Positions 41,754-42,483 are shown, numbered from the stretch's first letter. The stretch is 44,004 nt of DNA from Escherichia coli (GCF_003334765.1 NZ_QOWT01000033.1), one strand, 5' to 3'. The notes: a model not told the origin generated them from the sequence alone. A program made the numbers and translations.

Positions 41754-42407
41754 ATGAAAAAGTTAACAGTGGCGGCTTTGGCAGTAACAACTCTTCTCTC
41801 TGGCAGTGCCTTTGCGCATGAAGCAGGCGAATTTTTTATGCGTGCAGGTTCTGCAACCGTACGTCCAACAGAAGGTGCTGGTGGTACGTTAGGAAGTCTG
41901 GGTGGATTCAGCGTGACCAATAACACGCAACTGGGCCTTACGTTTACTTATATGGCGACCGACAACATTGGTGTGGAATTACTGGCAGCGACGCCGTTCC
42001 GCCATAAAATCGGCACCCGGGCGACCGGCGATATTGCAACCGTTCATCATCTGCCACCAACACTGATGGCGCAGTGGTATTTTGGTGATGCCAGCAGCAA
42101 ATTCCGTCCTTACGTTGGGGCAGGTATTAACTACACCACCTTCTTTGATAATGGATTTAACGATCATGGCAAAGAGGCAGGGCTTTCCGATCTCAGTCTG
42201 AAAGATTCCTGGGGAGCTGCCGGGCAGGTGGGGGTTGATTATCTGATTAACCGTGACTGGTTGGTTAACATGTCAGTGTGGTACATGGATATCGATACCA
42301 CCGCGAAGTATAAATCTGATGGTCGTAAACTGGCTAAAGGCAGTTATAGCGACAATGTACGCCTTGACCCGTGGGTGTTTATGTTCTCGGCAGGATATCG
42401 TTTTTAA
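41754..42407 (+). CDS. ompW: outer membrane protein W (8-strand beta-barrel)
   Basis: 217-aa ORF (MKKLTVAALAVTTLLSGSAFAHEAGEFFMRAGSATVRP...) with signal peptide and C-terminal ...SAGYRF. Confidence 0.93.
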   Translation: MKKLTVAALAVTTLLSGSAFAHEAGEFFMRAGSATVRPTEGAGGTLGSLGGFSVTNNTQLGLTFTYMATDNIGVELLAATPFRHKIGTRATGDIATVHHLPPTLMAQWYFGDASSKFRPYVGAGINYTTFFDNGFNDHGKEAGLSDLSLKDSWGAAGQVGVDYLINRDWLVNMSVWYMDIDTTAKYKSDGRKLAKGSYSDNVRLDPWVFMFSAGYRF

Positions 42408-42411
42408 TTTT

Positions 42412-42459
42412 CTCTGCAAAACCTCTGCAAAACTCTTCTGCAAAACTCTTCTGCAAAAC
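42412..42459 (+). repeat. four tandem direct repeats of TCTGCAAAAC (11-13 bp period)
   Basis: Copies at about 42413, 42424, 42437 and 42450, between the ompW stop and the integrase stop. Confidence 0.85.
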
Positions 42460-42483
42460 TGGTCATCAAATGACCAGTTTTTT
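42458..42483 (+). terminator. rho-independent terminator hairpin after ompW, overlapping the integrase stop codon
   Basis: ACTGGTCAT-CAA-ATGACCAGT stem-loop followed by a T run; the integrase TGA stop (42466-42468) sits in the hairpin and its last codons are encoded by the stem and T run. Confidence 0.75.

What the first reader, a model, noticed from the sequence alone, without database searches (positions are those of the whole stretch)
42412..42483. Direct-repeat array and terminator hairpin at the integrase 3' end: candidate arm-type Int sites and att junction
Four TCTGCAAAAC repeats sit between the ompW stop and the integrase stop, and the integrase's last five codons are encoded by the terminator stem and T run. 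In lambda the P' arm carries tandem direct Int arm-binding sites next to int, so this array is positioned like arm-type sites, implying the crossover core lies at or just inside the ompW 3' end. Alternatively it is a simple sequence repeat prone to slippage.
Basis: inference. Interest (0 to 1): 0.6.

Follow-up and report, generated by a model that had tools for sequence, protein, structure and literature searches.

The report
Prophage integrase arm sites beside ompW
The four short repeats are very probably the accessory ('arm-type') docking sites that a lambda-like prophage integrase uses to insert into and leave the E. coli ompW gene; this is an ordinary, well-understood part of a phage attachment site, here carrying one extra slipped copy.

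Summary
Four exact TCTGCAAAAC copies lie at 42413-42459, followed by a hairpin and T-run that overlap the integrase stop codon.

The window holds attL of the common "PPompW" lambdoid prophage.
- A four-way att alignment puts the crossover block at 42274-42301, 106 bp inside ompW.
- The phage supplies a substitute ompW 3' end, then the repeats, then int.
- The repeats are absent from empty ompW loci, so they are phage P'-arm DNA.
- Relatives carry one more copy on the opposite (P) arm, at a fixed 133-134 bp from the core and next to an IHF consensus site.
- The Int has a lambda-type arm-binding N-domain.

Phage 21 is the nearest studied relative (Int 50% identical) and has the same layout with GTTTTGGGGAAG. 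e14 has it with GTTTTGATAAC.

In about 75 arrays across Enterobacterales, a triplet spaced 13 then 11-12 bp recurs in four motif classes. The classes track the Int N-domain, not the catalytic domain.

Three copies is the norm. The window's fourth copy is a 13-bp slippage duplicate, and other isolates have 4 or 5.

Verdict: predicted Int arm-type sites (confidence about 0.87), a new member of a known kind. Binding was not tested.

The parts
41754..42407 (+). Chimeric ompW (217 aa). The host part runs up to the core; the 3' end is phage-derived.
   Evidence: ORF. Bases 41754-42273 are 520/520 identical to K-12 ompW. Annotated as ompW in matching genomes.
42274..42301 (.). Common core (identity block shared by attB, attP, attL and attR): CAGTGTGGTACATGGATATCGATACCAC. 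Strand exchange must occur here.
   Evidence: Four-way alignment of attB (K-12), attP (CP025907), attL (window, 300709, PPompW) and attR (300709, PPompW). Sequence left of it is host in attL and phage in attR; sequence right of it is phage in attL and host in attR.
42278..42301 (.). Candidate core-type Int sites: inverted repeat GTGGTA (42278-42283) / TACCAC (42296-42301), 12 nt apart, around the near-palindrome ATGGATATCGAT. The overlap region is presumed to be centred near 42290.
   Evidence: the repeat finder. The role is inferred by analogy with the lambda C-O-C' core.
42302..42407 (+). Phage-supplied substitute ompW 3' end (P' arm DNA). It restores the reading frame but changes the loop sequence (KYKSDGRKLAKGSYSDN against K-12 NYKLGGAQQHDS).
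42413..42422 (-). Arm-type site, core-proximal copy (GTTTTGCAGA when read in the int direction).
42424..42433 (-). Arm-type site, second copy (11 bp from the first).
42437..42446 (-). Arm-type site, third copy. One of the two 13-bp units TCTGCAAAACTCT is the extra, slipped copy relative to the closest relative (strain 300709).
   Evidence: Alignment gap of exactly 13 bp. Spacing is [13,13,11] against the canonical [13,11].
42450..42459 (-). Arm-type site, int-proximal copy. Its last bases form the foot of the hairpin.
42456..42483 (.). Hairpin (8-11 bp stem, 3-nt loop) plus T6 on the + strand and A-run/U4 on the - strand. Candidate bidirectional intrinsic terminator for the chimeric ompW and for int. 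The int stop codon (42466-42468) spans the last base of the 5' stem arm and the first two loop bases.
   Evidence: Folds (z = -6.1 and -4.3). Sequence.
42466..43596 (-). Integrase, 376 aa, lambda-type heterobivalent tyrosine recombinase with an N-terminal arm-binding domain.
   Evidence: Pfam PF09003 over residues 2-71 (E = 1.6e-21) plus PF00589. Lambda Int structures 5j0n and 1z1b match at E about 1e-55. 50% identical to phage 21 Int.
43574..43822 (-). Excisionase (xis), overlapping the int start.
   Evidence: ORF. Annotated xisE or excisionase in LC567822 and NZ_CP025903.

Best explanation
The window contains attL (B-O-P') of a lambdoid prophage of the PPompW type, integrated inside E. coli ompW. 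The TCTGCAAAAC repeats (GTTTTGCAGA in the int direction) are the P'-arm arm-type binding sites of the prophage's heterobivalent tyrosine integrase.

**Proposed mechanism (inferred from lambda and phage 21):**
- The Int N-terminal domain (residues about 1-65) binds these sites.
- The C-terminal domains bind the core at 42274-42301.
- Together with a single arm site and an adjacent IHF site on the P arm (at the far prophage end, outside the window) and with Xis, this bridging builds the intasome that carries out integration and excision.

**Why the sites sit where they do.** The core lies 106 bp inside ompW, so the phage carries a substitute ompW 3' end between the core and the arm sites. This places the sites about +128 to +165 bp from the core centre.

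**Copy number.** The canonical array is a triplet spaced 13 then 11 bp. The window has a fourth copy made by duplication of one 13-bp unit, probably by replication slippage and probably near-neutral.

**Hairpin.** The hairpin and T-run serve as the replacement terminator for the chimeric ompW and as the terminator of the convergent int.

**Shown here:** position, phage origin, copy on both arms, conservation, co-variation with the N-domain. **Inferred:** actual Int binding and requirement for recombination.
For: 1. **Phage origin.** The repeats are present in attL and attP and absent from attB and attR.
2. **Int type.** Int has the lambda Arm-DNA-binding domain, PF09003, E = 1.6e-21, and aligns with lambda Int structures from residue 14.
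3. **Motif on both arms.**
   - In L001, L002 and L003 the 9-mer CTGCAAAAC occurs only in the P' array and once on the P arm, 128 bp before the core, in the same orientation, with no other copy in 30-50 kb.
   - Five mutually diverged P arms keep the motif at 133-134 bp from GGTAYATGGA.
   - BLAST homology among P arms starts at the motif.
   - An IHF consensus lies 18-19 bp core-proximal of it.
4. **Homologous architecture in known phages.**
   - The phage 21 GenBank record annotates '3 subsites P1P2P3, consensus YYTTCCCCAAAA' right after int. A fourth copy lies on the P arm about 117 bp beyond the core.
   - e14 has a TTTTGATAA triplet plus one P-arm copy about 114 bp from the core.
   - Lambda P'1-P'3 abut the int stop, and P1 lies about -139 from the overlap, in the same orientation.
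5. **Family-wide pattern.**
   - 75 arrays fall into four motif classes (TTTTGCAG, TTTTGGGG, TTTTGATAA, TTTTACTG). 66 have 13/11 or 13/12 spacing.
   - Where cargo genes separate int from the array, the array stays with the core and still matches the N-domain class.
6. **The motif tracks the N-domain.**
   - N-domain identity is 0.80 within a class and 0.56 between classes. For the catalytic part the values are 0.69 and 0.60.
   - Same-class pairs go as low as 45% identity in the catalytic part. Different-class pairs go as high as 75%.
   - 7 of 12 fixed CAG-versus-GGG differences lie in residues 0-40.
7. **Independence from the core target.** The same TTTTGCAG motif serves phages that target icd (Yersinia, Providencia, Xenorhabdus) and ompW. 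This is expected if arm and core recognition are separate.
Against: - No binding or recombination experiment exists for this phage. Nakamura et al. 2021 (PMC8112680) define only a 121-bp att sequence and never mention arm sites.
- The P arm is not in the window, so the both-arms criterion rests on relatives.
- int and attP are physically linked, so motif/N-domain co-variation is partly co-inheritance. The N-versus-C contrast mitigates this but does not remove it.
- No IHF consensus was found between the core and the P' array in the window, yet the about 128-bp gap needs some bend.
- The information profile is partly circular, because arrays were selected by the exact 8-mer.
- Experimental support for phage 21 arm sites (Wang et al. 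1997, J Bacteriol 179:5705) is cited from memory. The paper could not be retrieved.
Confidence: 0.87

Rival explanations
1. The array is a functionless simple-sequence repeat that expands and contracts by slippage.
For: Copy number does vary. About 35 of 39 evenly sampled E. coli lysogens have three copies. Independent expansions give 4 copies in L101 (CCC-spacer 13-mer), L102 (11-mer) and the window (TCT-spacer 13-mer), and 5 in L100. Arrays of 2, 4 or 5 copies also occur in other genera.
Against: - A neutral repeat would not keep the same 8-10-mer, the same triplet number and the same 13/11 spacing across genera whose Int proteins are only 50-57% identical and whose flanks are unalignable.
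- It would not have a solitary copy at a fixed distance on the other arm.
- It would not switch motif in step with the Int N-domain.
Confidence: 0.04
2. The repeats bind a different recombination-directionality or host factor (Xis, Fis, IHF or a repressor) rather than Int.
For: attP arms carry sites for such proteins. The motif is A/T-rich at one end. No binding data exist.
Against: - In lambda, Xis sites are confined to the P arm near the core (established knowledge), whereas this motif sits at the outer edge of both arms.
- The motif does not match the IHF consensus, and a separate IHF consensus sits next to the P-arm copy.
- Host factors are invariant across hosts, yet the motif changes in four classes in step with the Int N-domain.
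- In phage 21 the homologous triplet is annotated as part of the integration site attP (three subsites), not as a site for another factor.
Confidence: 0.05
3. The array is an RNA-level element: part of the ompW 3' UTR or terminator, or a sib-like retroregulator of int.
For: The array is transcribed at the end of the chimeric ompW mRNA, before the hairpin. On the - strand the repeats can pair with each other (-28 kcal/mol, z = -4.3).
Against: - No Rfam family matches; the only hit has E = 0.27 and 19 bits against a 60-bit threshold.
- In phage 21, e14 and most relatives the terminator lies between the host gene stop and the array, so the array is not in the host transcript.
- The hairpin lies on the int side of the core and stays linked to int in both phage and prophage states, unlike lambda sib.
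- The P-arm copy has no such transcript context.
Confidence: 0.03
4. The repeats are host sequence native to the ompW downstream region.
For: None found.
Against: K-12 attB and the attR copies of lysogens read TAATTCCGCACAAAAACGACCCCGTAATATACGGGGTC after ompW, with no repeat. The free-phage-like record CP025907 carries the array next to int.
Confidence: 0.01

Closest known systems
Phage 21 attP (integrates in icd): P' arm triplet GTTTTGGGGAAG plus one P-arm copy
   Same: - Int is 50% identical over its full length and has the same arm-binding domain.
- Triplet of direct repeats just past the int stop, spaced 13/12 bp.
- The motif shares GTTTTG..GA(A/G).
- One same-orientation copy lies about 117 bp beyond the core on the P arm, with an adjacent IHF consensus.
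- The core lies inside a host gene and the phage carries a substitute 3' end.
   Different: - The central bases of the motif are GGGG, not GCAG.
- The target is icd, not ompW.
- In phage 21 the order is int stop - repeats - terminator - gene end. Here it is int stop within the terminator - repeats - gene end.
- The window has four copies.
e14 element attP/attL/attR in E. coli K-12
   Same: - Same Int family (N-terminus MAARPRKNNV...PNLYPLYSRK).
- TTTTGATAA triplet with 13/11 spacing beside the icd substitute end.
- One P-arm copy about 114 bp from the core, followed by an IHF consensus.
   Different: - Different motif class.
- 3 kb of cargo (ymfD, ymfE, lit) lies between intE and the array.
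- The target is icd.
Lambda attP arm-type sites P1, P2, P'1-P'3 (consensus C/AAGTCACTAT)
   Same: - Heterobivalent Int.
- Three tandem P' sites abut or overlap the int stop.
- P1 has the same orientation as the P' sites and sits about -139 bp from the overlap centre. This compares with about -140 here, measured in relatives and using the inferred overlap centre.
- An IHF site lies next to P1.
   Different: - Unrelated motif.
- Lambda P' sites are spaced 10-11 bp and lie at +57 to +78. Here they are spaced 11-13 bp and lie at +128 to +165, because a substitute gene end intervenes.
- Lambda has an inverted P2; no second P-arm copy was found here.
PPompW prophages (Nakamura et al. 2021, PMC8112680; LC567822 and related records)
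   Same: Same prophage family and integration site. Int is 99.5% identical. Their annotated 121-bp 'duplication due to insertion' covers the core plus the substitute ompW end.
   Different: - That work treats the whole 121 bp as att and does not describe arm sites.
- PPompW has three copies with a CCC spacer and a different substitute OmpW loop.
- The true identity block is only 28-31 bp.

Membership tests
Arm-type sites of a heterobivalent (lambda-type) tyrosine integrase | The cognate integrase has an N-terminal arm-DNA-binding domain. | tested here: met
   PF09003 over residues 2-71, E = 1.6e-21. Aligned with lambda Int structures 5j0n and 1z1b, E about 1e-55.
Arm-type sites of a heterobivalent (lambda-type) tyrosine integrase | The sites lie in phage-derived arm DNA: present in attP and attL, absent from attB. 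| tested here: met
   Four-way att alignment.
Arm-type sites of a heterobivalent (lambda-type) tyrosine integrase | The same motif occurs on both P and P' arms flanking the core. | tested here: met
   Shown in relatives only, because the P arm is outside the window. A single copy lies 128 bp before the core in L001, L002 and L003, and at 133-134 bp from GGTAYATGGA in five diverged P arms.
Arm-type sites of a heterobivalent (lambda-type) tyrosine integrase | The arm motif is distinct from the core-type inverted repeats. | tested here: met
   The core has GTGGTA/TACCAC, which is unrelated to GTTTTGCAGA.
Arm-type sites of a heterobivalent (lambda-type) tyrosine integrase | The motif is conserved under divergence and specific to the Int arm-binding domain. 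| tested here: met
   Four motif classes match N-domain signatures in about 66 full-length homologues. The N-domain separates the classes and the catalytic domain does not.
Arm-type sites of a heterobivalent (lambda-type) tyrosine integrase | Accessory bending-protein (IHF) sites lie between arm and core sites. | tested here: inconclusive
   A perfect IHF consensus lies next to the P-arm copy in the ompW type, e14 and phage 21. None was found in the window's P' arm.
Arm-type sites of a heterobivalent (lambda-type) tyrosine integrase | Direct binding by the Int N-domain, and requirement for integration or excision. | not testable with these tools
   Needs EMSA or footprinting and recombination assays.
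Phage 21 / e14-type attP (intragenic core with substitute gene end) | The core lies inside a host gene, the phage carries a replacement 3' end, and the Int is a homologue. | tested here: met
   Core at 42274-42301 and replacement at 42302-42407. Int is 50% identical to phage 21 Int.
Phage 21 / e14-type attP (intragenic core with substitute gene end) | The P' array is a triplet spaced 13 then 11-12 bp. | tested here: met
   66 of 75 arrays are canonical. The window is [13,13,11], a triplet plus one duplicated 13-bp unit. The closest relative, L003, is [13,11].
Intrinsic (rho-independent) terminator | A G+C-containing stem-loop followed directly by a U-run. | tested here: met
   8-bp stem with 4 G-C pairs, 3-nt loop, U6 on the + strand, z = -6.1. 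On the - strand the U-run is only U4. The hairpin was not listed by the simple scan. Termination itself was not tested.
Lambda sib-type retroregulator of int | The element lies beyond attP, so integration separates it from int. | tested here: not met
   The hairpin overlaps the int stop on the int side of the core and stays linked to int in both attP (L002) and attL.
Slippage-prone simple sequence repeat | Copy-number polymorphism among close isolates. | tested here: met
   3, 4 and 5 copies occur, with independent unit duplications. This is superimposed on a conserved triplet rather than replacing it as the explanation.

The most novel reading that the evidence does not exclude
Slippage in the arm-site array (3, 4 or 5 copies, arising independently on several backgrounds) acts as a heritable, reversible tuner of prophage stability. 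Under this reading, extra Int N-domain sites on attL change intasome geometry or Int occupancy and so raise or lower excision frequency. The array would then be a contingency locus for lysogen maintenance in a prophage carried by about a third of sequenced E. coli.
Probability: 0.08. Interest if true: 0.5.

Novelty: new member of a known kind. Interest (0 to 1): 0.3.

Why it matters
- It refines the attachment site of a very common E. coli prophage. The junction is present in 1729 of 5426 complete genomes, and the family includes Stx- and effector-carrying PPompW elements.
- The published 121-bp "att" resolves into a 28-bp crossover block, a phage-supplied ompW end and a set of arm sites. This gives the minimal attP limits: from the P-arm motif to the int-proximal repeat, roughly 320 bp.
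- The family-wide pattern is a ready-made natural experiment on how the lambda-type arm-binding domain reads DNA. It comprises four arm motifs differing in 2-4 central bases, each tied to a distinct N-domain signature and independent of the core target.
- That pattern could guide the design of orthogonal integrase/attP pairs of the phage 21 type, which I recall are already used in chromosomal integration vectors.
- Biologically it is the expected arrangement, not a new mechanism.

Tried and rejected
- **Rfam scan of 42200-42650.** Only a spurious sub-threshold snoRNA hit, so a known RNA family was rejected.
- **Simple terminator scan.** It missed the hairpin, so I relied on folding instead.
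- **Wang et al. 1997 (phage 21/e14 attP).** I tried to read it, but it is not held, and title searches found only papers citing it. The experimental status of the phage 21 arm sites is therefore from memory plus the GenBank annotation.
- **Phage records H66, H94 and H95.** Fetched hoping for intact attP of other classes, but they are prophage excerpts with host flanks. They gave P' arrays only.
- **IHF consensus between core and array in the window.** None at one mismatch or fewer, apart from a site upstream of the core in host DNA.
- **Exact source of the window.** No complete E. coli genome is identical across the junction. The best is 98.1%, strain 300709, with three copies. The E. albertii NBRC 107761 Int is 100% identical but also has three copies.
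- **Second, inverted P-arm copy (lambda P2-like).** None was seen by eye in the P arm of CP025907.
- **Information-content profile.** Kept only as illustration, because the selection by exact 8-mer makes it partly circular.

Full report
**1. The observation**

The sequence is as described.
- TCTGCAAAAC occurs exactly four times, at 42413, 42424, 42437 and 42450 on the + strand, spaced 11, 13 and 13 bp. It occurs nowhere else in the 44-kb window.
- Tandem Repeats Finder reports a 13-bp period, 3.8 copies and 94% matches.
- The array lies between the ompW stop (42405-42407) and the stop of a 376-aa ORF on the minus strand (42466-43596).
- Directly after the last copy comes CTGGTCAT-CAA-ATGACCAG (42459-42477), followed by six T (42478-42483).
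- Folded as RNA, the 91-nt region gives -18.4 kcal/mol with z = -6.1 on the + strand, and a comparable hairpin on the - strand with z = -4.3.
- The minus-strand ORF ends ...W-K-K-L-V-I-stop. The T-run encodes KK and the 3' stem arm encodes LVI. The stop codon takes the last base of the 5' stem arm plus the first two loop bases.
- The simple consensus terminator scan did not list this hairpin. I think this is because the stem can extend into the flanking A and T runs.

**2. What the locus is**

The ORF is a lambda-type integrase.
- Pfam finds the lambda Arm-DNA-binding domain (PF09003, residues 2-71, E = 1.6e-21) and the catalytic domain.
- Lambda Int crystal structures match at E about 1e-55.
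- An excisionase ORF overlaps its start (43574-43822).

The junction is common. DNA searches find it in 1729 of 5426 complete E. coli genomes. It also occurs in GenBank records named "PPompW". These are the lambdoid prophages at ompW described by Nakamura et al. 2021 (PMC8112680). That paper defines a 121-bp attL/attR, confirms attP by PCR, and does not mention arm-type sites.

**3. Where the crossover is**

I aligned seven att sequences:
- attB from K-12 (L004);
- attP from a free-phage-like record, CP025907 (L002);
- attL from the window, strain 300709 (L003) and PPompW (L001);
- attR from L003 and L001.

All share CAGTGTGGTACATGGATATCGATACCAC, which is window 42274-42301.
- To its left, attL is host and attR is phage.
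- To its right, attL carries a diverged ompW 3' end that is also present in attP, while attR carries the native ompW end and its native terminator.

Strand exchange must therefore occur within 42274-42301, 106 bp inside ompW. Bases 42302-42407 are a phage-supplied replacement of the gene end.

The block contains GTGGTA/TACCAC 12 nt apart around ATGGATATCGAT. This is a plausible C-overlap-C' core.

The host part of ompW is 520/520 identical to K-12. The repeat array is absent from attB and attR and present in attP.

**4. Evidence that the repeats are arm-type Int sites**

*(a) The motif is on both arms.*
- In L001, L002 and L003 the 9-mer CTGCAAAAC occurs only in the P' array and exactly once more, on the P arm. 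That copy lies 128 bp before the core, in the same orientation, with no other copy in 30-50 kb.
- Five mutually diverged P arms keep it at 133-134 bp from the core's GGTAYATGGA.
- BLAST similarity among diverged P arms begins at query positions 51-53, which is where the motif starts. The motif therefore marks the outer edge of the conserved attP.
- A perfect IHF consensus lies 18-19 bp core-proximal of it.

*(b) Known relatives have the same architecture.*
- Phage 21 Int is the closest characterised homologue, at 50% identity. Its complete-genome record annotates [quoted passage not shown] immediately after the int stop. A terminator, the substitute icd end and the core follow. A fourth copy lies about 117 bp beyond the core on the P arm.
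- Read in the int direction, phage 21 has GTTTTGGGGAAG and the window has GTTTTGCAGAAG/GTTTTGCAGAG. These are visibly the same site family.
- e14 in K-12 has a TTTTGATAA triplet beside its icd substitute end and one P-arm copy about 114 bp from the core, followed by an IHF consensus.
- In lambda, P'1-P'3 abut the int stop. P1 lies about -139 from the overlap, in the same orientation as the P' sites and next to H1. The corresponding figure here is about -140. It is measured in relatives and uses the inferred overlap centre.
- From memory, not verified here: Wang et al. 1997 (J Bacteriol 179:5705) showed that the minimal phage 21 attP extends to the outermost dodecamers, and that 21 and e14 differ in arm-site consensus.

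*(c) The pattern holds across the family.* A scan of one genome per species returned 80 Int homologues from Enterobacterales.
- Printing the DNA after each int stop showed tandem repeats in about 60 of them.
- Several others carry the array 0.6-2.5 kb further on, beyond inserted cargo genes.
- In all, 75 arrays fall into four motif classes: TTTTGCAG (28), TTTTGGGG (26), TTTTGATAA (17) and TTTTACTG (4). 66 are triplets spaced 13 then 11 or 12 bp.
- The TTTTGCAG class serves both icd-targeting phages (Yersinia, Providencia, Xenorhabdus and others) and the ompW phage. The arm motif is therefore independent of the core target, as expected for a bivalent integrase.

*(d) The motif tracks the N-domain.*

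Each class has its own N-terminal signature:

| Motif class | N-terminal signature |
|---|---|
| TTTTGCAG | MARPRKYN..PGLSCYTDARTKK |
| TTTTGGGG | MAARPR.HK..PNLYCKLDKRTGK |
| TTTTGATAA | MAARPRKNN..PNLYPLYSRK.NK |
| TTTTACTG | MAGRPRKHN..QNLFCFTDPRTKR |

Identity within and between classes:

| Region | Within class | Between classes |
|---|---|---|
| N-domain | 0.80 | 0.56 |
| Catalytic part | 0.69 | 0.60 |

- Same-class pairs go as low as 45% identity in the catalytic part.
- Different-class pairs go as high as 75% in the catalytic part.
- 7 of the 12 fixed differences between the CAG and GGG classes lie in residues 0-40.
- int and attP are linked, so some of this is co-inheritance. The N-versus-C contrast and the cargo-separated cases argue for a functional tie.

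**5. Copy number**

Three copies is the norm.
- All nine IMG/VR matches have three positions, though in L009 the first reads CTGCAAAAT.
- About 35 of 39 evenly sampled E. coli lysogens have three.
- The closest relative of the window, strain 300709, has three.
- The window differs from 300709 by exactly one 13-bp unit (TCTGCAAAACTCT).
- Other isolates expanded independently. L101 has 4 copies through a CCC-spacer 13-mer, L102 has 4 through an 11-mer, and L100 (an O157:H7 strain) has 5.

**6. The hairpin**

It has the form of an intrinsic terminator for the chimeric ompW (U6). It is a weaker one for the convergent int (U4).

In phage 21, e14 and most relatives the replacement terminator lies between the host gene stop and the array. 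In the ompW lineage it lies on the int side and overlaps the int stop, so ompW transcripts read through the arm sites.

It is not sib-like, because it stays linked to int in both attP and attL.

**7. Verdict**

The finding is real, and its main interpretation holds with confidence about 0.87. These are the P'-arm Int-binding sites of the PPompW-type prophage, homologous to the phage 21 and e14 dodecamers.

The att junction proper is not in the flagged interval. It lies at 42274-42301.

This is a new, previously unannotated member of a well-known kind of element. Interest is modest for the site itself. The four-class arm-site/N-domain correspondence seen in passing is somewhat more interesting.

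What remains untested is physical binding and the functional effect of 3, 4 or 5 copies.

Noticed in passing
window 42302-42407 (compare L004 and L001): The phage-supplied ompW 3' end is not a faithful copy. Between ...MDIDTTA and VRLDPWVFMFSAGYRF, K-12 has NYKLGGAQQHDS, the window (and strains 300709 and S19-141) has KYKSDGRKLAKGSYSDN (5 residues longer), and PPompW/204576 has KYKSGVTTVKDS. By position this should be the last extracellular loop of the barrel. Lysogeny would then rewrite a surface loop of OmpW, which some phages use as a receptor (PMC10132071, PMC12032242) and, as I recall, colicin S4 does too. Two phage alleles exist.
   Followed up: partly
loci L016-L099 (Int homologues across Enterobacterales): There are four arm-motif classes (TTTTGCAG, TTTTGGGG, TTTTGATAA, TTTTACTG). 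Each is tied to a distinct Int N-terminal signature and is independent of both the catalytic-domain clade and the core target (icd, ompW, dcp, potC). This is a natural recognition-code data set for the lambda-type arm-binding domain.
   Followed up: yes
L017, L031, L042, L046, L064, L067; e14 in L099 5899-5931: In several relatives 0.6-3 kb of cargo genes (in e14: ymfD, ymfE, lit) lie between the int stop and the arm-site triplet. The triplet stays next to the substitute gene end and core rather than next to int.
   Followed up: partly
P arms of ompW prophages: L002 21743-21782, L001 43755-43794, L104, L106, L107: Similarity among diverged P arms starts at the single P-arm motif, and a perfect IHF consensus follows 18-19 bp later. 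Together with the int-proximal repeat this delimits a functional attP of roughly 320 bp.
   Followed up: partly
L105 (E. coli Z1324SEC0014 attR): An IS903B-family element has replaced the outer P arm, including the P-arm motif and the IHF site. That prophage has probably lost the ability to excise normally.
   Followed up: no
L104 and L106 (attR-like junctions): The sequence right of the P arm is a diverged ompW-like core (CGGTCTGGTACATGGATATCGATACCGAA...), annotated as a partial OmpW-family pseudogene rather than the native ompW end. It may be the 'attB-in-PP_3' ompW-like site inside prophages reported in PMC8112680.
   Followed up: no
12-13 bp on the int side of the first arm site in TTTTGCAG-class loci (e.g. 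L021, L041, L082); window about 42462-42472: A recurring degenerate element (A/G)TTTT(T/G)TGTAC or ATTTTGTAGCC precedes the triplet at about one repeat spacing. It could be a weak fourth Int site or just a constraint from the int C-terminus or stop region.
   Followed up: no
window 1-42273: The rest of the window is ordinary E. coli chromosome (ORFs consistent with tonB, yciA, yciB and yciC upstream of ompW; yciC and ompW are annotated in matching genomes). The prophage runs off the right end of the window, inside the exonuclease gene, so attR and the P arm are not available here.
   Followed up: partly
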